This document shows, one piece after another, positions 5,699-50,261 of a stretch of DNA of 64,000 bases. This DNA is from Kangiella sp. Lineage in GTDB: Bacteria; Pseudomonadota; Gammaproteobacteria; Enterobacterales; Kangiellaceae. The stretch is taken from NCBI GenBank assembly GCA_036568325.1, contig DATCST010000061.1, positions 6,835-70,834 of the forward strand. The letters run 5' to 3'. The number at the start of each line of letters is the position of its first letter. Within the stretch, counting starts at the first letter, position 1. The notes under the pieces are model-generated. The model was not told the DNA's origin. It did not search any database and saw nothing but the letters and a program-made list of their open reading frames with translations. The translations under genes were made by a program, and so were the position numbers.

Positions 5699-6673
5699 TT
5701 AATAGTGGTTCATCATGCTATCCAGGCTTAGCTGCCCTTCAGCCTGAAAAGGAATCAACTGGAACAACTGGTCGGAGGCTTTGGTGGAGGTTTTGACCTC
5801 GATCTTTAACTTGTAGGTACCGATATCCAGTTTATTGCCGGACATATCCTTTAGTTCCAAGCTGTCACCAAAGCGCTTCTTCTGGCCTGGTTCAAGAGTG
5901 ATGGTCTGGAATGCTTGAGTGAACATGCGCCCGCTTGACCACTGACTGACAAGGTTATCATTACTATCGTACAGGTAAATATCGAAAAGCTGGCCACTGT
6001 TGAATGTCAGCTCAACAGGTTCGCCGGACTGATTGGTTAAGGTGATGTACGCCTCAACGCTATCAGTTTCATTGAGCATCACTGTCCCAGCCGGAAAACT
6101 CGCTGAGACTTCGATGCCTTCATATTCAGGATAATTCATGCCAGCCAGCTTAGCATACTCAAGTTCATAGTCCACCACACCGGCAATGGTTTGCTCTTTC
6201 CACTTTATAAGCCCAGCGTCATACGAGAACCAGGCTGATAAGAGGCCGGCATCATTACAATAGCCATCGAAGTTAACACGAACCACTGAATTAAAAGCAC
6301 CTGCCAAAGTAGTCATCAATTGAGCTTTTTCTGCGACGGTTGCTACTTGTGTACAAGAATCTAGATTCACACTATAGTTCGTGCCAATTGGATCATTAAA
6401 GTTAATCAACTTCACTGGGTTATTGCTTTGCGACAGGGTTGAAATTGAGCTACCTGAAGTTTTAAGCCACATTAATTCTCTACCGAGATAGTTACTGACT
6501 TGTACCCACTGCGAACCGAAACGATCCGACAGAGCAATTGTCTTACTTTGACCATATCTCGAAGTGAATTCCTTATAGTCATTAAAGCTGTCGACTTCAC
6601 CAGCTTGAACGGTACTTGCAGCCATGATTGAAGTTGCGAACAGAAGATTGATAATGTTGTTTTGTGTATTCAT
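5699..6673 (-). CDS. Secreted protein with a C-terminal BsuPI-like (proteinase inhibitor) domain
   Basis: Signal peptide ending VQA. The C-terminal TLTNQSGEPVELTFNSGQLFDIYLYD...WSSGRMFTQA...LEPGQ matches my recollection of the BsuPI pattern. Confidence 0.65.
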   Translation of the reverse strand: MNTQNNIINLLFATSIMAASTVQAGEVDSFNDYKEFTSRYGQSKTIALSDRFGSQWVQVSNYLGRELMWLKTSGSSISTLSQSNNPVKLINFNDPIGTNYSVNLDSCTQVATVAEKAQLMTTLAGAFNSVVRVNFDGYCNDAGLLSAWFSYDAGLIKWKEQTIAGVVDYELEYAKLAGMNYPEYEGIEVSASFPAGTVMLNETDSVEAYITLTNQSGEPVELTFNSGQLFDIYLYDSNDNLVSQWSSGRMFTQAFQTITLEPGQKKRFGDSLELKDMSGNKLDIGTYKLKIEVKTSTKASDQLFQLIPFQAEGQLSLDSMMNHY

Positions 6674-6959
6674 GGTATTACTCCTTTAACAATTGAATGG
6701 TGGTTAAAAACAATTCCATTGTGAGCAAAACACGAATATCGACAATTGAATTAAATTACAGTTTCGAATCAATTATTTTAATAGATATCAATAAGTTATT
6801 AAGTTTCAAAACCTTAGAATGGCTTGTCATCAGGCTGTCAAACAATGAATAATTTATGACAAATCAGATGTGACTTGCTGTGTGTAAGAGTGATGAAGTT
6901 TGCTTGAAAGATCTGTGTCAGCAAGGCGACTGTTCGATGACAGCCGCTGATAGATTTAA

Positions 6960-7679: not shown

Positions 7680-7729
7680 TTAAGTCACAAAACCACTGGA
7701 AGGAGCGAAAATGCTTTTAATCCTTCTAA

Positions 7730-8371
7730 TCAGACACCAGTTTTTTCGCCCCAAATAATTTTATGCAACTGAACCTGCATTCTCACCTTGAGTCGATCTT
7801 TCAATATCCACTCTGCTAAATCGGCATACTCAACCTGCCCGTAGCTGGGTGAGAACAAAACTTCACACTTGCTGGTGATGTCGTATTGTTCTACGGTCAT
7901 TTTGCACCATTCGTAGTCTTTACGGCTACAGATGACAAACTTGACCTGGTCGGTTGGTTTTAAGAGATCAATATTTGAGTATAAATTACGAGCCATTTCT
8001 TGTGAATCTGGGGTTTTTAGATCCATGACGATCATAACGCGCGAATCAACTGGTGAGAGATCATGCGCACCGCCGGTTTCAGTGGAAACTTTATAGCCTT
8101 CATCGCAGAGTAACTTGAAGAACTCGAACACGCGCTTTTGCGCTAATGGCTCCCCACCGGTGACACAAACATGATCGCATCCATATTGCTTGATTTGCGC
8201 TAATATTTCTTCAAAGGTCATCCACTCACCACCACCAAAGGCATAATCTGTATCGCAATAGACACAACGCAATGGGCATCCGGTAAGGCGTACAAACACT
8301 GTTGGCACACCAACGGTCAGACTTTCGCCTTGCAACGAATGGAATATCTCGGTGATACGTAATTTACTCAT
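7730..8371 (-). CDS. queE: 7-carboxy-7-deazaguanine synthase
   Basis: SLQGE and FVRLTGCPLRCVYCDT motifs; adjacent to queC. Confidence 0.97.
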   Translation of the reverse strand: MSKLRITEIFHSLQGESLTVGVPTVFVRLTGCPLRCVYCDTDYAFGGGEWMTFEEILAQIKQYGCDHVCVTGGEPLAQKRVFEFFKLLCDEGYKVSTETGGAHDLSPVDSRVMIVMDLKTPDSQEMARNLYSNIDLLKPTDQVKFVICSRKDYEWCKMTVEQYDITSKCEVLFSPSYGQVEYADLAEWILKDRLKVRMQVQLHKIIWGEKTGV

Positions 8372-25898: not shown

Positions 25899-27671
25899 TT
25901 ACTGCTCTTTCTTCTTAACCTGAATACCAAGTTCATCCAGCTGCTTCTCTTCGACAATGCTTGGTGCTTGTGTCAAAGGACAACTGGCAGTGGTGGTTTT
26001 AGGGAAGGCGATAACATCACGGATGGAGTCTGCGCCGACCATCAGCATAACCAAGCGGTCTAAACCGAATGCCAAACCACCATGTGGCGGACAACCGAAT
26101 TTTAATGCATCCAATAAGAAGCCGAACTTTTCTTTCTGCTCGGTTTCATCAATACCTAGAATATCGAATACGGTTTCCTGCATGTCCTGATTGTGGATAC
26201 GAATCGAACCACCCCCCACTTCACTACCATTAAGAACCATGTCATAAGCTTTAGATAAAGTCTCAGTTGGGTTAGCTTTAACTGCCGCCACATCGTTTTC
26301 TTTCGGTGCAGTAAATGGATGGTGCAAGGCATGAATCTCACCATCAATTTCTTCAAACATTGGGAAGTCGACGACCCACAATGGCTTCCACTCATCACGT
26401 AGCAATTCAAGGTCCGCTGCCACTTTAAGGCGCAATGCACCCATAGCATCAGCTACTACTCGCTTGGTGTCCGAGCCGAAGAAGATAATGTCGCCTTCTT
26501 GGGCACCGACTTTCTCAACAATAGCTAGTGCTTTGTCGTCGCCAAGGAACTTCAGAATTGGACTTTGCAGGTTTTCAGCACCCTGCCCGTTGACCTTCAT
26601 CCAGGCCAAGCCTTTGGCGCCATAGATACCGACAAAGTTAGTGTATTCATCAATTTGCTTACGGCTTAATTGCGCACCACCCGGTACACGAAGCGCCGCT
26701 ACACGGCTTTGTTCATCGTTAGCAGGGCCAGAAAATACTTTAAACTCAACGCCTTTTACAATTTCATCAACCGTGAACAACTCCATATCGGTACGCAAAT
26801 CAGGTTTGTCCGAACCATAACGATCCATCGCCTCGGCATAACTCATGCGCGGGAATGTTGGTAGTTCGACACCTTTAAGTTCTTGGAACAGATGACGGAT
26901 CAAACCTTCCATCAACGCCATTACCTCTTCCTGATCGAGGAATGAGGTTTCAATATCCAGCTGGGTAAATTCCGGCTGGCGATCAGCGCGCAAGTCTTCA
27001 TCACGGAAGCACTTAACGATCTGGTAATAACGATCAAAGCCGGACATCATCAACAACTGCTTAAACAACTGAGGTGATTGCGGCAATGCGTAGAAAGAAC
27101 CTTTATGTACACGGCTCGGTACCAAGTAATCACGCGCACCTTCTGGTGTCGCTTTAGTCAAAATCGGTGTTTCAACATCAATAAAACCATGCTCATCCAT
27201 ATAGCGGCGCATGGCACTAGTCACTTTATGGCGGAAAATCATGTTTTGCGCCATGTCTGGACGACGCAAATCAAGGTAACGGTATTTCAGCCGTTGTTCT
27301 TCTGATGCTTCCAGGTTTTCATCAATAGGAATCGCTGGCGGCTGTGCTTTATTGAGGATAGTCAGCTCTTGCGCCAATACCTCGATTTCGCCGGTGGTCA
27401 TATTTTTATTGACCATCTCATCTGGGCGAGCACGCACCTGGCCTTTGACCTGAACCACAAACTCATTACGAAGCTGCTCTGCAGTAGCAAACAACTCATT
27501 AAAGTCAGGATCAACCACTACCTGTATCAAACCGCTACGGTCACGCACCTGAAGAAAAATAAGCCCTCCAAGATCACGACGACGATGAACCCAGCCTGAC
27601 AATGTAACCGATTGATTTACTTCGTTTTTTGATAGTTCGCCACAGTAGTGGCTTCGCATTTTGCTTGTCAT
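25899..27671 (-). CDS. aspS: Aspartyl-tRNA synthetase
   Basis: [46 protein letters not shown] motifs. Confidence 0.99.
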
Positions 27672-27820
27672 AGGTATTTCTGCCTGAAACCTGAATTATT
27701 TAAGAGGGAAAAACCCCGAAAAAACGCAGTATGGTACGCCACAGCTTGCCGAGTAGCAAGCTGGAAGCCCCTGAAATGCTTAATTTTACCCCAGTTGCTG
27801 GTGTTCGGTTAAGCGCTCTT

Positions 27821-27860
27821 GTGTCATAAAAGTTTCTAACGGTTGCCACGCTGTTGTCAC
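27821..27860 (+). promoter_or_regulatory. Pho-box-like 11-bp direct-repeat array upstream of the olsF-like gene
   Basis: TGTCAT (27822), TTTCTA (27833), TGCCAC (27844), TGTCAC (27855), exactly 11 bp apart; the first reads GTGTCATAAAA. Confidence 0.6.
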
Positions 27861-27944
27861 TTTGCGCTGAAAAAATAGCCAGCATGAAAAAATATTTAGA
27901 CAAGGCTGTTTTACAGCAAACAACTCATTTGGGAGTCGATGCTT

Positions 27945-29642
27945 ATGATAGATAGCAATAACCTGGTGGGGCAACTCTTACCCAAACTGGAGCAATCACC
28001 GCGCATTAAGTCAGGAGTATCGCGTCTTATCGCCAACTTGTTCCATGAGCAAGAAATCAATCGGTTTATCAAGCAGAACCAGCATTTGTCACCCTGCGAC
28101 TTTCTGGAAAAGACCAATGAACGCTTGGGGCTAAGCTATTCTGTCAGCAATTCTTCGTTAGAAAATATCCCCGTGTCAGGGCGCGTGGTGATCATTGCCA
28201 ACCACCCGTTAGGCTCACTGGATGGGCTTGCGTTACTAGCTTTAGTACATTCGGTTCGCAAGGATGTCAAAATCGTGGTTAACGAACTGTTAGGGGCAAT
28301 GGCACCACTGCGTCCGTTTTTCTTAGGCGTTAACAATATTACCGGACAAAGCAGCCGCGATAAAATTCAGCAAATCCATCAGTCTCTGGACAATGAACAA
28401 GCAGTGATCTTCTTTCCAGCTGGTGAGGTATCACGTTTATCTATCAAGGGTGTGCGTGATGGTAAATGGCACTCTGGTTTCCTGCGCACGGCTAAACAGA
28501 AGAAAGCGCCTATTTTACCCATTCATGTTGGAGGCAAAAACTCCAAGTTCTTTTATGGATTATCGCTGATTGCCAAACCAGTCAGCGCCTTGTTGTTAGT
28601 ACGTGAAATGTTTAAGCATGTCTCGCTAACACTGCCACTGAAAGTTGGTAAATTAATACCCTACGCTTCTTTTAGCGGCATGTCGCCGGCCAGCAAGGAC
28701 AGTATCGCTCGCTTCAAACAACACCTCTATGGCTTGAAGAAAAACAAGAGTGGGCTATTTGAAACCGAGCAGTCGATTGCACACCCCGAAAAAAAGCAAT
28801 TGCTCAAAGAAGAGTTAAGTCTCTGTCGCTTGATTGGTCAAACCCATGATGGCAAAAAGATTTACCTGCTTGAAAATACCTCTGACTCTGTTCTGCTTCG
28901 CGAAATAGGTCGTCTTCGAGAAGTCGCTTTTCGAATGGTAGGCGAAGGCACAGGCAACCGTCGTGATATCGACAAGTTCGATTATTATTACAAACATATC
29001 GTGTTATGGGACGAGCATGATTTAGAAATAGTCGGTAGCTACCGCATTGCCGACATTAATCGGCTGCCAACCGAGCAAGAACTGTATTCCGAAACTCTGT
29101 TCGGATACGAAGACCAGTTGCGTCAAAAATTCCCAATGGCCATGGAGCTCGGTAGAAGTTTTGTTCAACCGCGCTACTGGGGCAAACGTAGCCTCGATTA
29201 TTTATGGTTCGGCATTGGCGCCTACCTGCGAGAAAATCCGCATGTCCGCTATTTGTTTGGCCCAATTAGTCTTAGCAATGACTATCCAGAATTTGCCAAA
29301 GACCTGATTATTTACTTTTACCAGAAATTTTATGGTGCTCCCTTATTATTGGCGCGCTCGTTCAATGCCTACCGCATCAAGCCAGTACAAAAAGCCAAAC
29401 TGGAAAAGCTGTTCAATCATCTGGATGAGAAAGAAGCTTTTGCGGCGTTGAAATCAGAGCTGGGCAAACTGGGTAGTAATGTTCCGACCCTCTTTAAACA
29501 ATACAGTGATCTGTGTATTGAGGGGGGTGTTGAGTTTCATGACTTTGGGGCAGATCCAGCTTTTGGAGACTGCATTGATAGCGTGGTGTGGATCGACTTA
29601 CTGAAGTTAAAAGATAAGAAGCGCAAACGTTACATTGATTAG
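27945..29642 (+). CDS. olsF: Bifunctional PlsC-like O-acyltransferase / GNAT N-acyltransferase (OlsF-like aminolipid synthase)
   Basis: NHPLGSLD (HX4D) and FFPAGEVS acyltransferase motifs; C-terminal GRLREVAFR, DKFDYYYKHIVLWD, ELGRSFV and LWFGIG. Start placed at the second ATG (27945). Confidence 0.75.
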   Translation: MIDSNNLVGQLLPKLEQSPRIKSGVSRLIANLFHEQEINRFIKQNQHLSPCDFLEKTNERLGLSYSVSNSSLENIPVSGRVVIIANHPLGSLDGLALLALVHSVRKDVKIVVNELLGAMAPLRPFFLGVNNITGQSSRDKIQQIHQSLDNEQAVIFFPAGEVSRLSIKGVRDGKWHSGFLRTAKQKKAPILPIHVGGKNSKFFYGLSLIAKPVSALLLVREMFKHVSLTLPLKVGKLIPYASFSGMSPASKDSIARFKQHLYGLKKNKSGLFETEQSIAHPEKKQLLKEELSLCRLIGQTHDGKKIYLLENTSDSVLLREIGRLREVAFRMVGEGTGNRRDIDKFDYYYKHIVLWDEHDLEIVGSYRIADINRLPTEQELYSETLFGYEDQLRQKFPMAMELGRSFVQPRYWGKRSLDYLWFGIGAYLRENPHVRYLFGPISLSNDYPEFAKDLIIYFYQKFYGAPLLLARSFNAYRIKPVQKAKLEKLFNHLDEKEAFAALKSELGKLGSNVPTLFKQYSDLCIEGGVEFHDFGADPAFGDCIDSVVWIDLLKLKDKKRKRYID

Positions 29643-29692
29643 TCTTATATTCTTGTCGCCATTTATTGTCACCCAGTCCAAAAGACCTGTTG

Positions 29693-30892
29693 CTACTTCA
29701 GCAACAGGTCTTCTAATAATTTAAAATACAAATGTCGCAATTGATCCAATTCAGCAATGCTGACTCGTTCATTGGCCTGATGTATGGTTTTGTTGCTTGG
29801 CCCAATCTCAATCACCTGCTTGGCGATTTGCTTGATAAAACGGCCATCCGATATACCGCCACCCGTGGTTAGTTTTGGTTTTAAACCACATTCTTTCTGA
29901 ATGGTCTTTTGCAGACTTTTACGTAGTGAACCTCGTTTAGTCAGGTAAGGTTCTGCTTCATGATCCCACTCAATATCAGCCTTTAAACCATACTTAATTA
30001 TTTTTCTTTCCACGTAGGCTTTGATCTTTGAAAAACTGTTCTTGGGAGAGTAGCGAAAGTTAAAGCATAACTCCAAATCAGCCGGCGTGACATTCATGGC
30101 ACCACTTTCCGAGTGCACTTTGACCAACTGACAACTGGTCGAAGGAAAAAATCGACTTGGTATATCCCAACGTTTTGAGGCTAGCTTATGAATCAATCGC
30201 GATGACTTATGGATCGGATTAATCAGTTGCTCAGGATAACCGACATGCCCTTGCTTACCGTGCAAAGTGATTTTGCAGTTAACAGAACCACGTCGGCCAA
30301 TACGAATTGAATCACCCAGTTTGAGCTCTGTAGTTGGCTCGCCAACAATAGCACAATCGATCACCTCATTACGTGCCAGCAAGGTGTCAACAATATGCTT
30401 GGTGCCTTCGAGAGCTATGCCCTCTTCGTCACTGGTCAGCATAAAACCTATTGCGCCCTGATGTTGGGGATAAAGCGTCACGAATTGCTCTACTGCCACC
30501 ACCATCGCAGCCAGACTCCCTTTCATATCCGATGCACCACGGCCATACAGAAATCCATCTTTAATCACCGGAATAAAAGCCGGCGTATCCCACTTTGCAT
30601 TCTGCCCGGGTGGCACCACATCGGTATGCCCGGCAAAAACCACCACCGGATGCCCACCACCTCTCTTTGCCCAAAGGTTCGATACCCGATTCTTGTTCAG
30701 AAACTCGAGCTTGAAGCCGATAGACTCCAAACGCTCACCAATCAAATCACAACATCCCTGGTCAGAGGGAGTAATTGAGGGCTTTCGTATCAGATATTGA
30801 GCAAGTTCAAGCATAATCGACTGATAATTCAATTCAATCTTACTGTGCAGATTCGTTGTCTGGTCTGTAATAACTGTTGTTTGCTTTAGCAT
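29693..30892 (-). CDS. dapE: DapE-like M20 metallopeptidase, divergent and basic, with an N-terminal extension
   Basis: FAGHTDVVP, GRGASDMKG, TSDEEG, VGEPT, GRRGS and IHQANE motifs; GGGISD in place of the usual GGGTSD. Confidence 0.8.
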   Translation of the reverse strand: MLKQTTVITDQTTNLHSKIELNYQSIMLELAQYLIRKPSITPSDQGCCDLIGERLESIGFKLEFLNKNRVSNLWAKRGGGHPVVVFAGHTDVVPPGQNAKWDTPAFIPVIKDGFLYGRGASDMKGSLAAMVVAVEQFVTLYPQHQGAIGFMLTSDEEGIALEGTKHIVDTLLARNEVIDCAIVGEPTTELKLGDSIRIGRRGSVNCKITLHGKQGHVGYPEQLINPIHKSSRLIHKLASKRWDIPSRFFPSTSCQLVKVHSESGAMNVTPADLELCFNFRYSPKNSFSKIKAYVERKIIKYGLKADIEWDHEAEPYLTKRGSLRKSLQKTIQKECGLKPKLTTGGGISDGRFIKQIAKQVIEIGPSNKTIHQANERVSIAELDQLRHLYFKLLEDLLLK

Positions 30893-30917
30893 AATTCACC
30901 TCTTTTATCTCAGCATC

Positions 30918-30972
30918 GTTATATCAGTCTGCAATGACAGAGCAGCGACACAATGGTTAACTTTTTGCGACA
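30918..30972 (-). promoter_or_regulatory. Pho-box-like array plus -10 element upstream of the dapE-like gene
   Basis: Minus strand: TGTCGC-N5-GTTAAC-N5-TGTCGC-N5-TGTCAT-N10-TATAAC. Confidence 0.65.
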
Positions 30973-31062
30973 ACACCAGAGAAACCCTACTTATAGACTC
31001 TTTATCGTGCTCCAAAAATAGACTAAAGTGCTACTACCTTAATTTTCTTAAGTAATATCACA

Positions 31063-32712
31063 ATGCATATGACCAAATGGATTCTGGGCTTTACCCTGAT
31101 TATCACCTCGAGCCTTTTCACAGCGGCTCAGGCACTTCCGACTCTGATTCATAACGTTAAGGGCTATACTTTCGCTGAAGGTGAGTTAGTAGAATTCGAT
31201 AGTCTTATATTCGAAAACGACGAGATTATCGCTTTTGGTAACCATGAAGAACTTGCCAATAATGCCAAGGCCAGTATTTCAATAGATGGCAAAGGGGCAA
31301 CTTTGATACCTGGTTTAACCGATGCTCACGGCCATGTTCTCGGACTGGGCTTGAATTTAATGCGCGTTGATTTGCGTGGCATTGATTCGCTTGAAGGAAC
31401 CATGAAAAAGATTAGCGAGTACGCCAAAGCCAATTCGGAACTGCGCTGGATTCAGGGCCGAGGCTGGAATCAGGTGTTATGGGCCAAAAAAGAATTCCCA
31501 ACTAAACAAATGCTGGACACCATTATCAATGACCGCCCTGTTTGGCTTAGTCGTATTGATGGTCACGCAGGCTGGGCTAACAGCAAAGCATTAGAACTTG
31601 CAGGCATCACTAAAGATACAGCAGATCCAGCTGGCGGCAAGATCATAAAAGATGCCAGTGGCGAACCAACAGGTGTATTGATAGATGCCGCTATGGATAT
31701 TGTCGAAAGCAAAATTCCTGAGCTAAATGCAATGGAGCATCGTACGGCTTTGGAGCTGGCATTTGATCACATGCTTAAACTTGGCATCACTTCAGTCCAT
31801 GATGCGGGCGTCGATTTCGATACTTATAAATTGATGCTGGATATGGCGAAAGATCAACAAATACCGGTTCGTCTTTATGGCATGTTAAGTGGCAGCGATG
31901 AGCGTCTTAAAACCATGCTAGAAATGGGAAAAGTCGAGTTACCTTTCTTGAAATTCCGTTCAGTGAAATTATACAGCGATGGCGCATTAGGTAGTCGCGG
32001 TGCGGCTTTATTGGCCCCCTACTCTGACGATCCAGACAACAAAGGATTATTACTGACCACAGAAAAGAAGCTTTCTGAAGATTTGAGTCTGATTACCCAA
32101 TATGGTTTCCAGGCCAATGTTCACGCCATTGGCGATGCCGCTAATCGCTTGGTGCTGGATGCTTTTGCCAAGCTTCCTGAAAATCAGTCTGCCGATATAC
32201 TACGTCATCGCATTGAACATGCTCAAGTGGTTGCAGTTGAAGATATTCCGCGCTTTGCCGAGCTCAATATTATTGCTTCCATGCAACCGACTCATGCTAC
32301 CAGCGACATGAATATGGCAGGCGATCGTTTAGGCGATGAGCGTTTAAAAGGGGCTTATGCTTGGCGCAAGATGCGTGAGCATGATGTGTTGATTGCAGCA
32401 GGTTCTGACTTTCCTGTTGAGCTGGCTAATCCGTTCCTGGGCATTCATGCCGCAGTGACTCGCCAGAACAGTGACAACCAGCCGGAAGGTGGCTGGTTAC
32501 CTGCCGAAAAGCTTGACCGTGCCGAAACCTTGAAAGCTTTTACCATTGATGCCGCTTACTCTGGCTTCTGGGAAGATGAGATAGGAAGTCTTGAAATCGG
32601 TAAGAAAGCTGATTTTATTTTGATTGATAAAGATATTTTTTCAGTTAATGCAGAAGAACTTGATGATGTTCAGGTACTACAAACCTGGGTTGGTGGAAAA
32701 CGACTACTTTAG
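31063..32712 (+). CDS. Exported amidohydrolase (YtcJ-like, amidohydrolase 3 family)
   Basis: Signal peptide; IPGLTDAHGH, KLYSDGALGSRGA, HAIGDAAN, HRIEHAQ, GSDFPVE motifs. Confidence 0.9.
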   Translation: MHMTKWILGFTLIITSSLFTAAQALPTLIHNVKGYTFAEGELVEFDSLIFENDEIIAFGNHEELANNAKASISIDGKGATLIPGLTDAHGHVLGLGLNLMRVDLRGIDSLEGTMKKISEYAKANSELRWIQGRGWNQVLWAKKEFPTKQMLDTIINDRPVWLSRIDGHAGWANSKALELAGITKDTADPAGGKIIKDASGEPTGVLIDAAMDIVESKIPELNAMEHRTALELAFDHMLKLGITSVHDAGVDFDTYKLMLDMAKDQQIPVRLYGMLSGSDERLKTMLEMGKVELPFLKFRSVKLYSDGALGSRGAALLAPYSDDPDNKGLLLTTEKKLSEDLSLITQYGFQANVHAIGDAANRLVLDAFAKLPENQSADILRHRIEHAQVVAVEDIPRFAELNIIASMQPTHATSDMNMAGDRLGDERLKGAYAWRKMREHDVLIAAGSDFPVELANPFLGIHAAVTRQNSDNQPEGGWLPAEKLDRAETLKAFTIDAAYSGFWEDEIGSLEIGKKADFILIDKDIFSVNAEELDDVQVLQTWVGGKRLL

Positions 32713-33189: not shown

Positions 33190-34905
33190 ATGCGTAGTAG
33201 CCAATACTTACTTTCCACACAAAGAGAAGATCCAAGCGACGCCGAGCTGATTAGCCATAAGTTAATGCTTAGAGCAGGCATGATCCGCAAGATTGCCTCA
33301 GGTATGTATACCTGGCTGCCCACTGGCTTGCGTGTTTTGCGCAAAGTAGAAGCTATTGTTCGAGAAGAAATGAACAAGGCTGGCGCAGTTGAGATATTAA
33401 TGCCGAGCGTGCAACCCTCTGAGCTATGGGAAGAGTCAGGCCGTTGGGACCAGTTTGGCCCAGAATTACTGCGTTTTAAAGATCGTCATGGCCGTGACTT
33501 CTGCTTGGGCCCAACCCACGAAGAAATCATTACTGCGGTCATTCGCGACGAGATCAACAGCTACAAACAGCTTCCAGCGAGTTTTTATCAAATTCAAACC
33601 AAGTTCCGCGATGAAGTTCGCCCTCGTTTCGGTGTTATGCGCGCTCGTGAGTTCTTGATGAAAGATGCCTACTCTTTCCACGTTGATGAAGAGTCATTAT
33701 CGGAAACCTATCAGGTAATGCACCAGGCCTACTGCAATATTTTCGAGCGTATTGGTTTAGATTATCGCCCAGTGCTGGCGGATACCGGTGCTATCGGTGG
33801 TAGTAACTCGCATGAGTTCCATGTGCTAGCAGAATCAGGCGAAGATGCGATTGCTTTCAGTAGCGAAGGTGATTACGCCGCCAATATAGAAAAGGCACAA
33901 AGTCTCGCACCACAAAAAGAAGCCGCAGCTCCGAACCAGGGCTTAACTAAGGTCGAAACACCAAACACCAAGTCCATTAAACAGGTGTGTGAGTTACTAA
34001 AAGTAACACCACAGCAAACGGTGAAAACTTTGTTGGTGGTTGGTGAAAACGAAGAAAATCCAGTGGTAGCTTTATGCTTACGTGGCGACCATGAGCTTAA
34101 TGAAATTAAAGCTGGCAAACATCCGTTAGTGGCTGAGCCAGTACAATTAATTTCTGACGAACAGATTCAATCAGTTGCTGGTTGCGATGCAGGTTCTGTT
34201 GGCCCATGTGGCTTAGATATCCCTGTCATTGTCGATCGTGATGCCGCAGTACTCAGTGACTTTGTCTGTGGCGCCAATGACACAGGCTTCCACTTCGCAG
34301 GCGCAAACTGGCAACGTGATGCGCAACTATCCGAAGTGATGGACATTCGTAATGTGGTTGCTGGCGACCCAAGTCCGGATGGTAAAGGTATTCTGGAAAT
34401 CAAACGTGGTATCGAAGTAGGTCATATTTTCCAGCTTGGTACTAAATACTCTGAAGCAATGAACTGCAAGGTACTGGATCAAAACGGCAAAGCTGTGACC
34501 TTGGCGATGGGTTGTTACGGTGTAGGCGTCTCGCGTATCGTTGCCGCTGCCATTGAGCAAAATTATGATGACAACGGTATCCTCTGGCCAGCAGCCATTG
34601 CACCGTTCCAGGTTGCCATTATCCCTATGAATATGCATCGCTCAGAACAAGTTCAACAAGTCGCTGAGAAGTTATATGACGATTTACAACAACTGGGCAT
34701 TGATGTGATATTTGATGATCGCAAAGAGCGTCCCGGCGTCATGTTCGCAGATATGGAACTGATCGGTGTTCCTCATCGCTTAGTGGTCAGCGAACGTGGT
34801 TTGGAAAACGGTACTATTGAATATAAGAACCGCCAAAACACCGCTAAGGATGACGTCAGCGTAGAAAATGTTGTAAATTATATCCAAGAACTGTTACCAC
34901 AATAA
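33190..34905 (+). CDS. proS: Prolyl-tRNA synthetase
   Basis: [36 protein letters not shown] and MGCYGVG motifs; INS editing domain present. Confidence 0.99.
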
Positions 34906-34909
34906 CACT

Positions 34910-35503
34910 ATGGCGTTGAGTAGAGTGACACTAGGTCGAATCTTAGCAATTGTTGGTCTTATAGCTGTGACGGGGTTCACTCAAACCAGTCAAGCTCAAG
35001 AGCGACCCGATCAAGCTTTCTATGATGAGCTTAAGGCTCTGATGGAAGCTGATAACCATTTCGTTGATCGCTATGATGCTGAGGTCTGGATGAAAGACAT
35101 GTCAGGCCGTCTCAAGCGTCGTGCTCCGCATATTCCCCAAGATGAACGCTTAAAGATTCTGACACTGGTCCATCGCTACTCAAATGCATCAGGGGTTGAC
35201 CCGCAACTAGTTCTCGCCATCATGGAGGTGGAAAGTAACTTTGATCGCTACGCCCTTTCGGTTGCCAATGCGCGAGGACTAATGCAAATCATGCCTTTTT
35301 GGAAGGATGAAATTGGTCATCAAGAGGACTCTCTTTTTGATATGGAAACCAACGTACGCTATGGCTGCTACATTCTCAAACTCTATCTGGATATGGAAAA
35401 AGGCAACCTGACTTACGCCCTAGGGCGCTACAATGGTTCTCGTGGAAGAGCTAAATATCCTAATAAAGTTTACGCTGCCTTGCGCAACCGTTGGGCGCTG
35501 TAA
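34910..35503 (+). CDS. Lytic transglycosylase (SLT domain)
   Basis: IMEVESNF (catalytic Glu), GLMQIMP, ALGRYNG; N-terminal signal or anchor. Confidence 0.92.
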   Translation: MALSRVTLGRILAIVGLIAVTGFTQTSQAQERPDQAFYDELKALMEADNHFVDRYDAEVWMKDMSGRLKRRAPHIPQDERLKILTLVHRYSNASGVDPQLVLAIMEVESNFDRYALSVANARGLMQIMPFWKDEIGHQEDSLFDMETNVRYGCYILKLYLDMEKGNLTYALGRYNGSRGRAKYPNKVYAALRNRWAL

Positions 35504-35508
35504 AACTA

Positions 35509-36735
35509 ATGACTGAACGCCCTTCAATTCCAGGACTGATCCTTAGTGGTGGCGGTGCACGTGCCGCTTACCAAGTTGGTGTATTAAAAGCTGTTTCAGA
35601 AATTCTGGAGCATCCTGAAAAATCTCCCTTTAGAATTGTCTCCGGCACATCAGCCGGTGCTATTAATTCCTGTGCGGTCGCTGAACACAGCCACCGTTTT
35701 GCCGAAGGGCTCAGACGCCTGGAACATCTCTGGGCCAACCTGACACCGGATCAGATTTACCACACCAAGTTACGCCAGTTGTCAGGCAATGCTTTCCGCT
35801 GGATTTGGAATATTTTACGCCCAGCCAGCCAACTCAAAAAACCATTGGCGCTTCTTGATAACTCTCCTCTTCGCGAATTGTTGACCACAGCCATTCGCTT
35901 TGATGATATCCGCGAGAACATCAAGAATGGCTTCTTGGATGCAACCTGTATCACTGCATACAACTACAATACAGGCGATTCGGTCAGCTTCTTTCAGGGC
36001 ATACCCGATTTGGTCGAATGGCAACGCTTTAGACGTTTTGGTAAAGCAGAAGACTTGACCTTGTCACACCTGATGGGCACAACTGCCATTCCCATGATTT
36101 TCCCATCGGAGCCTATTAATGATATTCACTTCGGTGACGGCTCAATGCGTTTCTTGACGCCGCTTAGCCCCACCCTGCGATTAGGCGCGAATAAATTGTT
36201 TGTGGTCACGGTAGAGCCTTTGCGTGGCGAAGTCGATCATGAAATCAAAATTCCGTCGATTGGTGATATCAGCGGCCACTTGCTGGACAGTATTTTCATC
36301 GACAGTTTAGAGAGCGATATCGAGCGCATGATGCGAGTTAATGAATTGCTGGCACACATTCCTGAGCGCGACATTGTGCGCGAACAGCTCACGCTGAAGC
36401 AGGTTGATACCTTCATTATTTCACCGAGCATTGATCCGATGGAGCTTGCCGGTCAATATTTTAAAAACCTTCCGCGCGGCCTACGTTTCTTTTTCAAACG
36501 CATTGGTGTTGATGAAGAAAATGGTGAGAGTATTTTGAGCTACCTGCTTTTTGATAAGTCTTTCACCAACCACTTAATTGAGCTTGGCTACCAAGATGCG
36601 ATAAAGCAGGAACATAATATTTTAGACTTCTTTAACTACCAGCAAACTCAGCAAGAAGAAGAATCTGAACAGGAAGATGAATCTGACTATAAGGAATCAT
36701 CTCAACAAGAAGAGCTATCTCAACAAGACCTGTAG
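35509..36735 (+). CDS. Patatin-like phospholipase
   Basis: LSGGGARAAYQVG, GTSAG nucleophile elbow, GDGS; acidic C-terminal tail. Confidence 0.92.
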   Translation: MTERPSIPGLILSGGGARAAYQVGVLKAVSEILEHPEKSPFRIVSGTSAGAINSCAVAEHSHRFAEGLRRLEHLWANLTPDQIYHTKLRQLSGNAFRWIWNILRPASQLKKPLALLDNSPLRELLTTAIRFDDIRENIKNGFLDATCITAYNYNTGDSVSFFQGIPDLVEWQRFRRFGKAEDLTLSHLMGTTAIPMIFPSEPINDIHFGDGSMRFLTPLSPTLRLGANKLFVVTVEPLRGEVDHEIKIPSIGDISGHLLDSIFIDSLESDIERMMRVNELLAHIPERDIVREQLTLKQVDTFIISPSIDPMELAGQYFKNLPRGLRFFFKRIGVDEENGESILSYLLFDKSFTNHLIELGYQDAIKQEHNILDFFNYQQTQQEEESEQEDESDYKESSQQEELSQQDL

Positions 36736-49494: not shown

Positions 49495-49548
49495 AGCAGA
49501 TTCTGAATTTCTCGGGAGCTCTACCGTCGTCACAGTTCAGAATGACAA
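49495..49548 (-). repeat. TGTC-tagged REP-like palindrome, copy 3, with an expanded loop
   Basis: Minus strand: TTGTC-ATTCTGAA-(28-nt loop containing GTAG)-TTCAGAAT-CTGCT. Confidence 0.75.
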
Positions 49549-49590
49549 TAATAGAATGGTGGTCATATAAACCATTGATTATTATATCCA

Positions 49591-49648
49591 TGTCGCTTTG
49601 TTGTCACCCCAATGTCGCTCATCCTTCGCGAAGATGTCGTGTTATACT
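49591..49648 (+). promoter_or_regulatory. Five-fold 11-bp periodic operator abutting a -10 element
   Basis: TGTCGC 49591, TGTCAC 49602, TGTCGC 49613, CTTCGC 49624, TGTCGT 49635; TATACT at 49643. Confidence 0.7.
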
Positions 49649-49724
49649 TGGCTTGGAATTTACATAATTCAGGCTCACCACTGTATCAGCCAGCATTACA
49701 ACTAAACACACAAACGGATTGATT

Positions 49725-50261
49725 ATGATTGTTAGAAAATTGAGATTGAAAAGAGGTTGGTCACAAGAGCACTTAGCCGAGTTGATGGGTGTTAGCACTC
49801 GTACGATTCAGCGGATTGAGCGTGGCCAGACTAAGCCCAGTCTTGAAACTCAAAAATCATTAGCCGCTGTGTTTGAAGTTGATATAGCAACATTTGAACC
49901 GTCCATAGCTATGGACAGCACAGGAGAGCCTGATATGAACACCACCAATACCAATGAAACAACACAAAACACTGAGCGAGCCGCTAAACCGAAACCAGCC
50001 ATTGAAACAGTAAGCAATGAAGAGGCCGAAGCGATGGAATATGTAAAAGGGATTAAGGAGTTTTACTCTCATCTGCTTATTTTTATTATTTTCACCGTTA
50101 TGTTTATCTTTACCGGCAAAATCAACGATATGTTAATCGCCTGGTCGGCCTGGACTTTCGGTTTGATTATTCACGGTTTACAGGCCTTTGAAATTATCAA
50201 TCTTTTCAAAATAAACTGGGAAAAGAAGATGGTGGAAAAGCGCTTGAAGAAAAAGTTGTAA
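49725..50261 (+). CDS. XRE-family HTH regulator with a C-terminal 2TM domain
   Basis: WSQEHLAELMGVSTRTIQRIERG; C-terminal VKGIKEFYSHL...WTFGLIIHGL...WEKKMVEK. Confidence 0.88.
   Translation: MIVRKLRLKRGWSQEHLAELMGVSTRTIQRIERGQTKPSLETQKSLAAVFEVDIATFEPSIAMDSTGEPDMNTTNTNETTQNTERAAKPKPAIETVSNEEAEAMEYVKGIKEFYSHLLIFIIFTVMFIFTGKINDMLIAWSAWTFGLIIHGLQAFEIINLFKINWEKKMVEKRLKKKL

What the first reader, a model, noticed from the sequence alone, without database searches (positions are those of the whole stretch)
27821..30972. Candidate phosphate-starvation aminolipid module: OlsF-like synthase and an altered DapE paralog, each with a Pho-box-like array
Seen: two convergent genes 50 bp apart each have an upstream array of TGTCRY-type units at exact 11-bp spacing. 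The dapE-like array ends CTGTCAT-N10-TATAAC. The olsF-like array starts GTGTCATAAAA and ends TTGTCAC-N10-AAAAAT. Known: PhoB boxes are 11-bp CTGTCAT repeats placed 10 bp before the -10 (E. coli phoA geometry). OlsF (Serratia, Vibrio) makes phosphorus-free ornithine lipids and is induced by phosphate limitation in V. cholerae. Housekeeping dapE is not a recognised Pho-regulon gene. Inference: the M20 enzyme is co-induced to supply the ornithine or lysine head group, or to turn over N-acyl amino acids. I am not aware of this pairing being described. It is my best candidate for a new system in this window.
Basis: partly seen in the sequence, partly recalled or inferred. Interest (0 to 1): 0.8.

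Follow-up and report, generated by a model that had tools for sequence, protein, structure and literature searches.

The report
Pho-box promoters on olsF and dapE
In this Kangiella genome the ornithine-lipid synthase gene olsF and the neighbouring, unusually divergent dapE gene each sit behind a textbook phosphate-starvation (PhoB) promoter; this is expected for olsF, but I found no published report of it for a DapE enzyme, which hints at an undescribed link between this enzyme and phosphorus-free membrane lipids.

Summary
**Observation: confirmed.** Each has four 11-bp-phased units, and the last unit lies exactly 10 bp before a -10 hexamer. This is the architecture of the E. coli pstS promoter.

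**Evidence that the arrays are Pho boxes**
- They are far beyond chance.
- They are footprinted across 8 Kangiella genomes.
- The dapE site recurs in all 14 Kangiellaceae-type genomes examined.
- The olsF site recurs in 18 genomes, including Oceanospirillum, Neptuniibacter and Shewanella.
- A matrix built only from the Kangiella arrays picks the known E. coli pstS and phoA boxes as the top hit of their regions. It finds nothing at E. coli dapE.

**Interpretation: partly supported**
- OlsF is a clear OlsF equivalog. Pho control of olsF is already known in Vibrio and Serratia.
- The DapE is catalytically intact and passes the DapE equivalog cut-offs.
- It belongs to a Kangiellaceae-specific divergent clade: an N-terminal extension of about 25 aa, S290E/D, G291A and other signature changes near the substrate site. 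T325I occurs in Kangiella only.
- "Paralog" is not shown. No second dapE could be looked for, and indirect evidence favours a single diverged ortholog.
- The olsF-dapE pairing holds in Kangiella and most Aliikangiella, often with a Pho-boxed PlcP-like phosphoesterase. It is absent in one Aliikangiella and outside the family.

The head-group-supply role is inference. Interest is moderate.

The parts
27821..27860 (+). olsF Pho-box array: four 11-bp-phased units (GTGTCAT, GTTTCTA, TTGCCAC, TTGTCAC), i.e. two tandem Pho boxes
   Evidence: Conserved in 8 Kangiella genomes. The same architecture precedes olsF in 10 non-Kangiella genomes.
27868..27876 (+). olsF extended -10 (TGaAAAAAT). The hexamer AAAAAT lies exactly 10 bp after the last unit.
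   Evidence: There is no sigma-70 -35/-10 promoter here by consensus scan. The TGn motif is kept in 6 of the 7 Kangiella genomes compared and is also absent in L008.
27939..29642 (+). olsF, bifunctional ornithine-lipid synthase (N-terminal O-acyltransferase, C-terminal OlsB-like GNAT N-acyltransferase). The true start is probably the ATG at 27945.
   Evidence: NCBIfam NF052615 scores 796 bits against a cut-off of 620. Pfam gives PF19576/PF01553 plus PF13444. Relatives lack the first ATG and are 565-566 aa.
29682..29712 (.). 13-17 bp hairpin shared by the two convergent genes (bidirectional terminator-like). It overlaps the dapE stop codon.
   Evidence: -20.6 kcal/mol (+ strand) and -24.3 kcal/mol (- strand), z about -5. 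It is followed by UUUU on the - strand. The simple terminator scan did not list it.
29693..30892 (-). dapE of the Kangiellaceae-specific divergent clade (399 aa). It has a ~25-aa N-terminal extension and intact metal and catalytic residues. It carries T325I, S290E, G291A and further clade signature changes.
   Evidence: TIGR01246 scores 470 bits (cut-off 362) and PRK13009 489 bits (cut-off 284). It aligns without gaps to H. influenzae DapE 5VO3. Canonical DapEs score 543-574 bits.
30897..30904 (-). dapE Shine-Dalgarno sequence (AAGAGGTG), 4 nt before the ATG
   Evidence: Conserved in the Kangiella loci.
30918..30926 (-). dapE extended -10 (TGaTATAAC). The hexamer TATAAC (30923-30918) lies 10 bp after the last unit and 25 nt before the ATG.
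   Evidence: The unit-N10-(-10) spacing is kept in all 14 K-type genomes.
30934..30973 (-). dapE Pho-box array: four 11-bp-phased units (TTGTCGC, AGTTAAC, GTGTCGC, CTGTCAT)
   Evidence: It is the top-scoring site in the whole window with a matrix trained on other genera.

Best explanation
olsF and dapE are two separate one-gene transcription units. They converge on a shared hairpin. Each is driven by a PhoB-dependent promoter of the E. coli pstS type.

**Promoter mechanism**
- Two tandem Pho boxes take the place of a -35 element.
- The promoter-proximal half-site sits 10 bp upstream of the -10 hexamer.
- When phosphate is low, phosphorylated PhoB would bind the phased repeats, recruit RNA polymerase and raise transcription of both genes.

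**What the genes do**
- OlsF then makes phosphorus-free ornithine (possibly also lysine) lipids, which spare phospholipid phosphorus.
- The DapE-family enzyme is a catalytically intact N-succinyl-amino-acid desuccinylase.
- It belongs to a Kangiellaceae-specific divergent clade and is most likely the family's own, single, diverged DapE.
- This clade has been drawn into the Pho regulon and stays next to olsF. In Aliikangiella it also sits next to a Pho-boxed PlcP-like phosphoesterase.
- Its induction plausibly raises supply from the diaminopimelate/lysine branch, or releases ornithine or lysine from an N-succinylated precursor, for aminolipid head groups.

**Shown here**
- Gene identities.
- Promoter anatomy, conservation and equivalence of the motif with known PhoB sites.
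- Linkage of the two genes.
- The altered pocket residues.

**Inferred**
- PhoB binding and induction.
- The single-copy status of dapE.
- The physiological reason for co-regulation.
For: **Anatomy and statistics**.

**No -35 promoter** upstream of either gene.

**Motif identity.** Matrices were built only from marine olsF and PlcP-like promoters, or only from the Kangiella olsF and dapE arrays.
- Both put the pstS boxes top of their 20-kb E. coli K-12 region in the four-unit scan (31.5-31.8 bits).
- The first matrix ranks the phoB and phoA boxes first and second as 18-bp hits. The second ranks phoA first as an 18-bp hit and phoB first as a four-unit hit.
- They give nothing at E. coli yffB-dapE.
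- The E. coli unit-N10-(-10) geometry was read directly from the sequence.

**olsF promoters**
- The same four-unit architecture is present in Oceanospirillum, Neptuniibacter, Shewanella and five Aliikangiella-type genomes (three clear units in A. coralliicola).
- One or two units are resolved in L019 and L020.

**Published precedent**
- V. cholerae OlsF VC0489 is PhoB-dependent (PMC12186959).
- A pho box precedes olsF in S. proteamaculans (PMC12971839).

**dapE promoter.** A TGTCAY-type half-site lies N10 before a -10-like hexamer (TAnnnN) in 14 of 14 K-type genomes, in three lineages.

**Linkage.** olsF and dapE are neighbours in Kangiella, in five of six Aliikangiella-type genomes, and within 4 kb in a third lineage, despite otherwise different surroundings.

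**PlcP-like neighbour.** An LpxH-like metallophosphoesterase with its own four-unit array lies divergent from dapE in Aliikangiella.

**DapE identity.** Equivalog cut-offs are passed, the alignment to 5VO3 is gapless, and all metal, catalytic and most substrate ligands are kept.

**Single clade**
- The K-type sequences form one clade.
- It is the only DapE type seen from Kangiellaceae genomes.
- No canonical hit shares a contig with them.
- OlsF shows the same ~50% Kangiella-Aliikangiella divergence.
Against: **No experimental support**
- There are no data on PhoB binding or low-phosphate induction in Kangiella.
- No bona fide Kangiella pst or phoB promoter was available as an in-genome control.
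- No pst or pho gene lies in the window.

**Regulon breadth**
- Similar arrays precede two genes with no obvious phosphate role: an exported BsuPI-domain protein and an XRE-2TM regulator.
- The regulon may therefore be broad, or some arrays may serve another purpose.

**An essential gene behind a PhoB-type promoter is odd**
- A TGn extended -10 in six of the eight Kangiella genomes could give basal expression.
- Aliikangiella lacks this motif.

**The DapE is divergent**
- The K-type DapE scores 70-150 bits below canonical DapEs.
- It carries clade-wide changes at otherwise 85-100% conserved positions.

**One species lacks it**
- Aliikangiella sp. IMCC44359 has lost dapE from this locus.
- No K-type DapE of that species is in the protein database, although its OlsF is.
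- This suggests the gene can be dispensable.
Confidence: 0.6

Rival explanations
1. The M20 gene is an accessory, neofunctionalised DapE paralog (dapE2), and a canonical dapE lies elsewhere in the genome. Under Pho control it would desuccinylate or deacylate N2-succinyl- or N-acyl-ornithine or -lysine. That would feed OlsF with head groups, or turn over lyso-aminolipids.
For: **Clade-wide substitutions** sit at or beside substrate-contacting elements.
- S290E/D and G291A: S290 binds the distal carboxylate of SDAP (PMC5919655).
- N236K/R, G240E/D and T241S flank N244/N245.
- A196G lies between H194 and Y197.
- T325I occurs in Kangiella only.

**Other points**
- HMM scores are lower than for canonical DapEs.
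- The promoter is activator-type with no -35 element.
- Linkage to olsF and a PlcP-like gene is conserved.
- The gene is cleanly absent in Aliikangiella sp. IMCC44359, and no K-type copy of that species is in the database.
- argC-argB lie near olsF in Aliikangiella.
Against: - No second dapE was seen.
- A vertically inherited canonical copy should be the closest canonical relative of the K-type clade and so rank first among canonical hits.
- Kangiella genomes are small, about 2.5 Mb.
- R178 (succinate carboxylate), S181, H194, Y197, N245, R258 and N345 are all kept, and the alignment to H. influenzae DapE has no gaps.
- ArgE models score far below their cut-offs.
Confidence: 0.25
2. The phased repeats are bound by another OmpR/PhoB-family regulator responding to a signal other than phosphate, or by both that regulator and PhoB.
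For: - Four such arrays lie in 64 kb. Two of them precede genes with no phosphate link.
- Many units read TGTCGC rather than TGTCAT.
- No Kangiella pst or phoB promoter was available for comparison.
Against: - Matrices trained on these arrays recover exactly the experimentally defined E. coli PhoB boxes as top hits.
- The geometry equals that of phoA, phoB and pstS.
- The orthologous olsF is PhoB-controlled in V. cholerae (PMC12186959).
- A phosphoesterase carries the same array in Aliikangiella.
Confidence: 0.08
3. The dapE-side array is a leftover of, or really serves, the divergently transcribed neighbour. That neighbour is the PlcP-like gene in Aliikangiella and the exported Amidohydro_3 gene in Kangiella. 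On this view dapE is not itself phosphate-regulated.
For: - The intergenic region is shared with a divergent gene in every genome.
- In Aliikangiella that gene is a typical Pho-regulon enzyme.
Against: - The PlcP-like gene has its own separate four-unit array with N10 and GATAAT or GACAAT on the other strand.
- The dapE array is oriented toward dapE. Its exact N10 spacing to a -10 hexamer 23-46 nt before the dapE ATG is kept in 14 genomes.
- In Kangiella it has four units, although the PlcP-like gene is absent from the window and the Kangiella loci.
Confidence: 0.05

Closest known systems
E. coli pstS / phoA / phoB PhoB-dependent promoters (Pho boxes)
   Same: - 7-bp TGTCA-type direct repeats on an 11-bp period.
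- Two tandem boxes, as at pstS.
- The proximal unit lies exactly 10 bp before the -10 hexamer.
- There is no -35 element.
- Matrices from the Kangiella sites find the E. coli sites.
   Different: - Many units read TGTCGC, or are degenerate.
- A TGn extended -10 is present in six of the eight Kangiella genomes.
- One of the target genes (dapE) is absent from the text of the E. coli PhoB ChIP-seq paper searched here (PMC10294691).
- E. coli dapE has no such site.
OlsF of Serratia proteamaculans and Vibrio cholerae VC0489 (phosphate-limitation-induced ornithine lipid synthase)
   Same: - Bifunctional two-domain architecture, with an NCBIfam OlsF equivalog score above the cut-off.
- A pho box or PhoB dependence has been reported (PMC12971839, PMC12186959).
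   Different: - There are no lipid or expression data for Kangiella.
- Here, and in relatives, olsF is physically paired with a dapE-family gene. I did not find this pairing mentioned in the OL review.
DapE, N-succinyl-L,L-diaminopimelate desuccinylase (H. influenzae 5VO3/3IC1, N. meningitidis 4PPZ)
   Same: - Gapless alignment over 371 residues (E = 1e-115).
- The metal ligands H67, D100, E135, E163 and H349 are kept.
- So are the base E134 and residues R178, S181, H194, Y197, N245, R258 and N345.
   Different: - An N-terminal extension of about 25 aa.
- T325I (Kangiella only).
- S290E/D, G291A, G223P, N224S, N236K/R, G240E/D, T241S and G249A, clade-wide against 188 canonical DapEs.
- An HMM score 70-150 bits lower.
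- A Pho-box promoter.
PhoB-controlled lipid-remodelling genes of marine and soil bacteria (PlcP-type metallophosphoesterase plus phosphorus-free lipid synthases; S. meliloti OlsB/BtaAB). This rests on my own knowledge plus PMC12971839.
   Same: - Phosphorus-free lipid synthase genes sit behind Pho boxes.
- In Aliikangiella an LpxH-like metallophosphoesterase with a Pho-box array lies in the same neighbourhood.
   Different: - The PlcP identity of that phosphoesterase was not tested.
- It is absent from the Kangiella window and loci.
- A DapE-family gene is not, to my knowledge, part of the described remodelling sets.

Membership tests
OlsF (bifunctional ornithine lipid synthase) | Full-length match to the curated equivalog model, above its cut-off | tested here: met
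   NF052615 scores 796.4 bits against a cut-off of 620, covering residues 3-566 of 567.
OlsF (bifunctional ornithine lipid synthase) | An N-terminal PlsC-type O-acyltransferase domain fused to a C-terminal OlsB-like GNAT N-acyltransferase domain | tested here: met
   PF19576/PF01553 cover residues 29-245 and PF13444 covers 326-423.
OlsF (bifunctional ornithine lipid synthase) | Makes ornithine lipid from ornithine and acyl-ACP | not testable with these tools
   This needs heterologous expression and lipid analysis. Head-group specificity (ornithine versus lysine) is unknown. F. johnsoniae OlsF makes both (PMC12971839).
DapE (proteobacterial succinyl-diaminopimelate desuccinylase) | Equivalog HMM scores above the cut-offs | tested here: met
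   TIGR01246 scores 469.7 bits (cut-off 361.8) and PRK13009 489.5 bits (cut-off 284). Canonical DapEs score 543-574 bits.
DapE (proteobacterial succinyl-diaminopimelate desuccinylase) | Dinuclear metal ligands (H67, D100, E135, E163, H349), general base E134, and H194 from the partner subunit | tested here: met
   All are conserved in the window protein and in all K-type sequences.
DapE (proteobacterial succinyl-diaminopimelate desuccinylase) | The full set of substrate-contacting side chains (R178, S181, Y197, N245, R258, S290, T325, N345) | tested here: not met
   T325 is I. T is found in 187 of 188 canonical DapEs. S290 is E. The other residues are kept. The roles of T325 and S290 are taken from PMC5919655.
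DapE (proteobacterial succinyl-diaminopimelate desuccinylase) | It is the genome's DAP-pathway desuccinylase (single copy, essential) | not testable with these tools
   - No whole Kangiella genome could be scanned.
- Indirect evidence: searches show only K-type DapEs from Kangiellaceae genomes.
- Against this, Aliikangiella sp. IMCC44359 lacks a K-type DapE.
PhoB regulon promoter (Pho box) | Direct repeats of a 7-bp TGTCA-type unit with a 4-bp spacer (11-bp period), at least two units | tested here: met
   Four phased units are present at each gene. A score of 20 or more is expected 0.2 times per window. The site is top-ranked by an independent matrix.
PhoB regulon promoter (Pho box) | The box replaces the -35 element, with the proximal unit 10 bp upstream of the -10 hexamer | tested here: met
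   - N10 is exact at both genes.
- For dapE it is exact in all 14 K-type genomes.
- For olsF it is seen in every promoter read.
- The spacing is identical to E. coli phoA, phoB and pstS read from sequence.
- No -35/-10 promoter was found.
PhoB regulon promoter (Pho box) | The same motif as experimentally defined PhoB sites | tested here: met
   - The matrix trained only on Kangiella arrays ranks the pstS boxes first among about 40,000 positions of their region (31.8 bits).
- It ranks the phoA box first in its region in the 18-bp scan, and the phoB box first in the four-unit scan.
- It finds no site at E. coli dapE.
PhoB regulon promoter (Pho box) | PhoB~P binds the site, and transcription rises at low phosphate in a phoB-dependent way | not testable with these tools
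   Only low-depth metatranscriptome contigs show that both genes are transcribed. There are no phosphate-shift data.

The most novel reading that the evidence does not exclude
The Kangiellaceae-type 'DapE' may be a Pho-induced desuccinylase whose distal substrate pocket has been rebuilt. The changes are an acidic residue at 290, A291, a basic residue at 236, and I325 in Kangiella.

On this reading it releases ornithine or lysine from an N2-succinylated precursor, for example the arginine-succinyltransferase intermediate N2-succinylornithine. It would be a dedicated head-group supply step for OlsF during phosphate starvation, either instead of or in addition to its DAP-pathway role.
Probability: 0.2. 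Interest if true: 0.7.

Novelty: new variant of a known kind. Interest (0 to 1): 0.5.

Why it matters
**What is already known.** Replacing phospholipids with phosphorus-free aminolipids is a major way marine bacteria cope with phosphate scarcity. The synthases (OlsBA, OlsF) and their PhoB control are known.

**What is open.** How cells supply membrane-scale amounts of ornithine or lysine head groups has not been addressed.

**What this finding offers.** A DapE-family enzyme clade shows three features together:
- conserved Pho boxes;
- altered substrate-pocket residues;
- conserved linkage to olsF, and to a PlcP-like phosphoesterase.

This gives a concrete, testable candidate for that supply step. 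If it turns out to be only the housekeeping DapE, it would still be the first case I know of where the diaminopimelate/lysine pathway is wired into the Pho regulon. It also bears on DapE as an antibiotic target, because natural variants at T325 and S290 exist.

**A secondary result.** The olsF result extends Pho-box control of OlsF, with pstS-like four-unit architecture, to several marine gammaproteobacterial orders.

Tried and rejected
1. **A small matrix from E. coli Pho boxes recalled from memory.** It did not rank the two arrays, because half of the units are degenerate. I replaced it with phased-unit scoring and with matrices built from fetched sequences.
2. **The exact pattern TGTCAY-N10-TANNNT.** It misses both sites, because their -10 hexamers are TATAAC and AAAAAT. 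Its five hits look like chance or coding sequence.
3. **An in-window positive control.** I looked for pst, phoBR or phoU genes. None is present.
4. **A second dapE.**
   - There is no other M20 gene in the window.
   - The three protein searches return only the best 120 hits and cannot be filtered by taxon.
   - The question therefore stays open.
5. **Essentiality data for K. aquimarina DSM 16071.** This strain is locus L005, and a transposon library exists (10.1101/072470). No supplementary tables are held, and the journal version is not held.
6. **Transcription start evidence from public RNA runs.** Only low-depth metatranscriptome contigs were found, without ends or strand.
7. **A second M20 next to dapE in L020.** It is a glutamate-carboxypeptidase-like hydrolase, not a canonical DapE.
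8. **ArgE identity for the M20.** Rejected: 97 and 117 bits against cut-offs of 460 and 298.
9. **Rfam.** There is no known RNA family in 27400-31200.
10. **Literature.** No paper in the library links dapE or its product with the Pho regulon.

Full report
**What is there.** The window comes from a Kangiella species: the DapE-like protein is 99% identical to a protein named from 'Kangiella sp.'. The local gene order is as follows.

| Gene | Coordinates | Strand |
|---|---|---|
| aspS | 25899-27671 | - |
| olsF | 27939-29642 | + |
| dapE | 29693-30892 | - |
| exported Amidohydro_3 protein | 31063-32712 | + |
| proS | 33190-34905 | + |

- olsF and dapE converge, with 50 bp between their stop codons.
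- They share a strong hairpin at 29682-29712 (-20.6 and -24.3 kcal/mol, z about -5).
- Each gene is therefore its own transcription unit.

- Upstream of olsF the sequence reads GTGTCAT aaaa GTTTCTA acgg TTGCCAC gctg TTGTCAC, then N10, then AAAAAT (27821-27876).
- Upstream of dapE, on the minus strand, it reads TTGTCGC aaaa AGTTAAC catt GTGTCGC tgct CTGTCAT, then N10, then TATAAC (30973-30918). A Shine-Dalgarno sequence and the ATG follow 25 nt later.
- Both -10 hexamers are preceded by TGn (an extended -10).
- A consensus scan finds no -35/-10 sigma-70 promoter upstream of either gene.

**It is more than chance.** I scored four 11-bp-phased units against CTGTCAY.
- A score of 20 or more is expected 0.2 times per window.
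- It occurs at only four places, all intergenic, and these two are among them.

**It is conserved.** One genome scan and several contig look-ups gave further genomes:

| Group | Loci |
|---|---|
| Seven further Kangiella genomes | L001-L006, L008 |
| Five Aliikangiella-type genomes carrying dapE | L007, L013-L015, L019 |
| A third K-type lineage | L020 |

- Among the eight Kangiella genomes, the unit cores are 0.81 (dapE) and 0.90 (olsF) identical on average. The spacers are only 0.5-0.6 identical. This is a classic binding-site footprint.
- In all 14 genomes with this type of dapE, a TGTCAY-type half-site lies exactly 10 bp before a -10-like hexamer (TAnnnN) upstream of dapE (TTCAC in L008, GTTCAT in L020).
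- Kangiella has four units there, the others one or two.
- olsF has the four-unit, N10, -10 architecture in five Aliikangiella-type genomes (three clear units in A. coralliicola) and in Oceanospirillum linum, a Neptuniibacter and Shewanella avicenniae.
- One or two units could be read in L019 and L020.

**The arrays are Pho boxes.** I built position matrices from fetched sequences only and tested them on sequences they had not seen.
- A matrix from eleven non-Kangiella promoters (eight olsF, three PlcP-like) ranks the dapE array first of about 128,000 positions in the window (16.7 bits; background mean -42.5, sd 11.5).
- With N10 and the -10 included, the same matrix ranks olsF first and dapE third.
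- That matrix, and a second one built only from Kangiella olsF and dapE arrays, were run on three E. coli K-12 regions.
  - The first ranks the phoB and phoA boxes first and second as 18-bp hits.
  - The second ranks phoA first as an 18-bp hit and phoB first as a four-unit hit.
  - Both put the pstS boxes top in the four-unit scan (31.5-31.8 bits).
  - Nothing stands out near E. coli yffB-dapE.
- Reading the E. coli promoters directly gives the same geometry:
  - phoA: TTGTCAC-N10-TATAGT
  - phoB: CTGTCAT-N10-CATAAT
  - pstS: four units-N10-TATTTT
- PhoB binds such direct repeats, and the spacing to the core promoter is strict (PMC10294691).
- I therefore take both arrays as PhoB sites of the activating, pstS-like kind. 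Binding and induction remain untested.

**olsF.**
- The protein matches the NCBIfam OlsF equivalog (796 bits, cut-off 620). It has the two expected acyltransferase domains.
- Relatives lack the first ATG, so the true start is probably 27945.
- Pho control of olsF is published. VC0489 of V. cholerae depends on PhoB and is needed for growth at low phosphate (PMC12186959). A pho box precedes olsF in S. proteamaculans (PMC12971839).
- This half of the finding is a new member of a known kind.

**dapE.** The protein passes both DapE equivalog cut-offs (470 against 362; 489 against 284).
- It aligns without a single gap to H. influenzae DapE.
- All metal ligands are kept, as are the general base and residues R178, S181, H194, Y197, N245, R258 and N345.
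- It is still not ordinary.
  - Canonical DapEs, including E. coli's, score 543-574 bits on the same model.
  - Kangiella, Aliikangiella and the third lineage score 417-483 bits.
- Searching with the Aliikangiella protein shows that these ~400-aa proteins form one clade, set apart from canonical 375-380-aa DapEs.
- Against 188 canonical sequences, the clade carries S290E/D, G291A, G223P, N224S, N236K/R, G240E/D, T241S and G249A in all three lineages, and A196G in two of them.
- Kangiella alone has T325I, where T is found in 187 of 188 canonical sequences.
- In H. influenzae DapE, the T325 side chain binds the proximal carboxylate and S290 binds the distal carboxylate of the substrate (PMC5919655).
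- 'Altered' is therefore right: the changes cluster at the end of the pocket that reads the diaminopimelate moiety.
- ArgE models score far below their cut-offs.

Evidence for a single, diverged ortholog:
- Only K-type DapEs appear from Kangiellaceae genomes in two searches.
- A vertically inherited canonical copy should be the nearest canonical relative of the clade and so rank first among canonical hits. None of those hits carries a Kangiellaceae name or contig length.
- OlsF shows the same ~50% Kangiella-Aliikangiella divergence, so the family is simply deep.
- K. sediminilitoris, the one complete Kangiella genome seen here, is only 2.5 Mb.

Evidence pointing the other way:
- Aliikangiella sp. 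IMCC44359 is syntenic with A. maris but lacks dapE between olsF and the GST gene.
- No K-type DapE of that species is in the database, although its OlsF is.
- The promoter is an activator-type promoter.

I put roughly 0.65-0.7 on a single diverged ortholog.

**Linkage.** dapE and olsF stay convergent neighbours in every Kangiella genome.
- The 3' gap is variable: 50 bp here, a TonB-dependent receptor in L003, and glyoxalase or Sel1 genes in L006 and L008.
- The pairing also holds in five of six Aliikangiella-type genomes, where all other neighbours differ from Kangiella.
- In the third lineage the two genes lie 4 kb apart. There olsF ends an operon with an M14 peptidase and an alpha/beta hydrolase.
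- In four of the Aliikangiella-type genomes an LpxH-like metallophosphoesterase sits divergent from dapE (LpxH model 60 bits, below its 134-bit cut-off). It carries its own four-unit array with N10 and GATAAT or GACAAT.
- By family and context it resembles the PlcP phospholipase C of lipid remodelling. That is my own knowledge and was not tested.
- Outside the family, olsF has no dapE nearby.

**Most likely mechanism.**
- At low phosphate, PhoB~P binds both arrays and switches on olsF and this dapE.
- OlsF builds phosphorus-free aminolipid.
- The desuccinylase either raises flux through the diaminopimelate/lysine branch, or frees ornithine or lysine from a succinylated precursor.
- An OlsF can also make lysine lipid (F. 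johnsoniae; PMC12971839).
- The first two steps rest on strong sequence evidence and on precedent. The last is inference.

**Caveats.**
- There are no expression or binding data.
- No Kangiella pst promoter was available as a control.
- Two further arrays in the window precede genes with no phosphate link.
- Public metatranscriptome contigs only show that both genes are transcribed.

**Verdict.**
- Pho control of olsF is known.
- A conserved Pho-boxed, olsF-linked, pocket-altered DapE clade is, as far as my literature searches show, not described.
- I rate it a new variant of a known kind, of moderate interest.

Noticed in passing
window 6882-6943 (-): - A six- to seven-unit phased array: CTGTCAT, CAGTCGC, CTGACAC, CTTTCAA, ACTTCAT, CTTACAC.
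- It is the highest-scoring array of the simple phased scan (23 of 28).
- It lies 200-270 bp upstream of an exported 324-aa protein with a BsuPI proteinase-inhibitor domain (5699-6673, -).
- No -10 hexamer sits at N10, so its role is unclear.
   Followed up: partly
window 49527-49640 (+): Two successive phased arrays lie upstream of an XRE-HTH plus 2TM-domain protein (49719-50261, +).
- The first reads TCGTCAC..TGGTCAT-N10-GATTAT.
- The second reads ATGTCGC, TTGTCAC, ATGTCGC, CCTTCGC, ATGTCGT, then TATACT.

This may be a further Pho-regulon member, a small membrane-anchored regulator.
   Followed up: partly
window 27672-27790: - A block of about 110 bp directly upstream of aspS (- strand) is almost invariant among L001-L005 and partly kept in L006 and L008.
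- It includes the hairpin CAGCTTGC-n6-GCAAGCTG followed by a T-rich run.
- It could be an aspS leader or attenuator.
- It has no Rfam match.
   Followed up: partly
L007 8985-9800 (-), L013 12574-13389 (+), L015 1359-2171 (-), L019 13651-14478 (+): - A 271-275-aa LpxH-like metallophosphoesterase (below the LpxH cut-off) lies divergent from dapE in Aliikangiella-type genomes.
- It has its own four-unit Pho array with N10 and GATAAT or GACAAT.
- It is likely a PlcP-type lipid-remodelling phospholipase.
- It has no homolog in the Kangiella window or loci.
   Followed up: partly
L012 (Aliikangiella sp. IMCC44359) 7708-7865: - This genome is syntenic with A. maris, but dapE is cleanly missing between olsF and the GST gene.
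- No K-type DapE of this species appears in the protein database, although its OlsF does.
- What serves as its DapE is unknown.
   Followed up: partly
L003 11314-13419; L006 11249-12989; L008 11303-12076: The short gap between the 3' ends of dapE and olsF is an insertion hot spot in Kangiella. It holds a 701-aa TonB-dependent receptor in L003, and glyoxalase-family and Sel1-repeat genes in L006 and L008.
   Followed up: partly
L007 17588-19498; L012 1002-2906; L014 2446-4381; L019 2696-4677: argC and argB, the N-acetylated ornithine-pathway genes (NCBIfam equivalogs), lie 4-6 kb from olsF in Aliikangiella-type genomes. Ornithine-pathway genes therefore sit close to the ornithine-lipid synthase gene.
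   Followed up: no
L020 2871-11120: In a third K-type lineage (a MAG), olsF is the last gene of an apparent operon: M14 peptidase, alpha/beta hydrolase, olsF. The operon has a Pho box (GCTTCAT aaaa TCGTCAT-N10-CACAAT). Here dapE is followed by a second, glutamate-carboxypeptidase-like M20 gene.
   Followed up: partly
L013 9958-11124 (+); L015 3652-4815 (-): A 387-388-aa protein lies between olsF and dapE in two Aliikangiella-type genomes. It has a zinc-ribbon-like CxxC...CxxC segment and C-terminal membrane helices. It has no family match apart from a faint PHO4 hit on record.
   Followed up: no
window 27939-27947: The annotated olsF ORF starts at ATG 27939. Relatives lack this codon and start at the equivalent of ATG 27945, behind GGGAG, so the real protein is probably 565 aa.
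   Followed up: partly
window 35491-36735 (+): A patatin-like phospholipase gene lies three genes downstream of proS. The family call is Pfam Patatin, on the ortholog in L008. It also gives weak hits to CBASS and anti-phage phospholipase models, far below their cut-offs. I did not examine it for Pho boxes.
   Followed up: no
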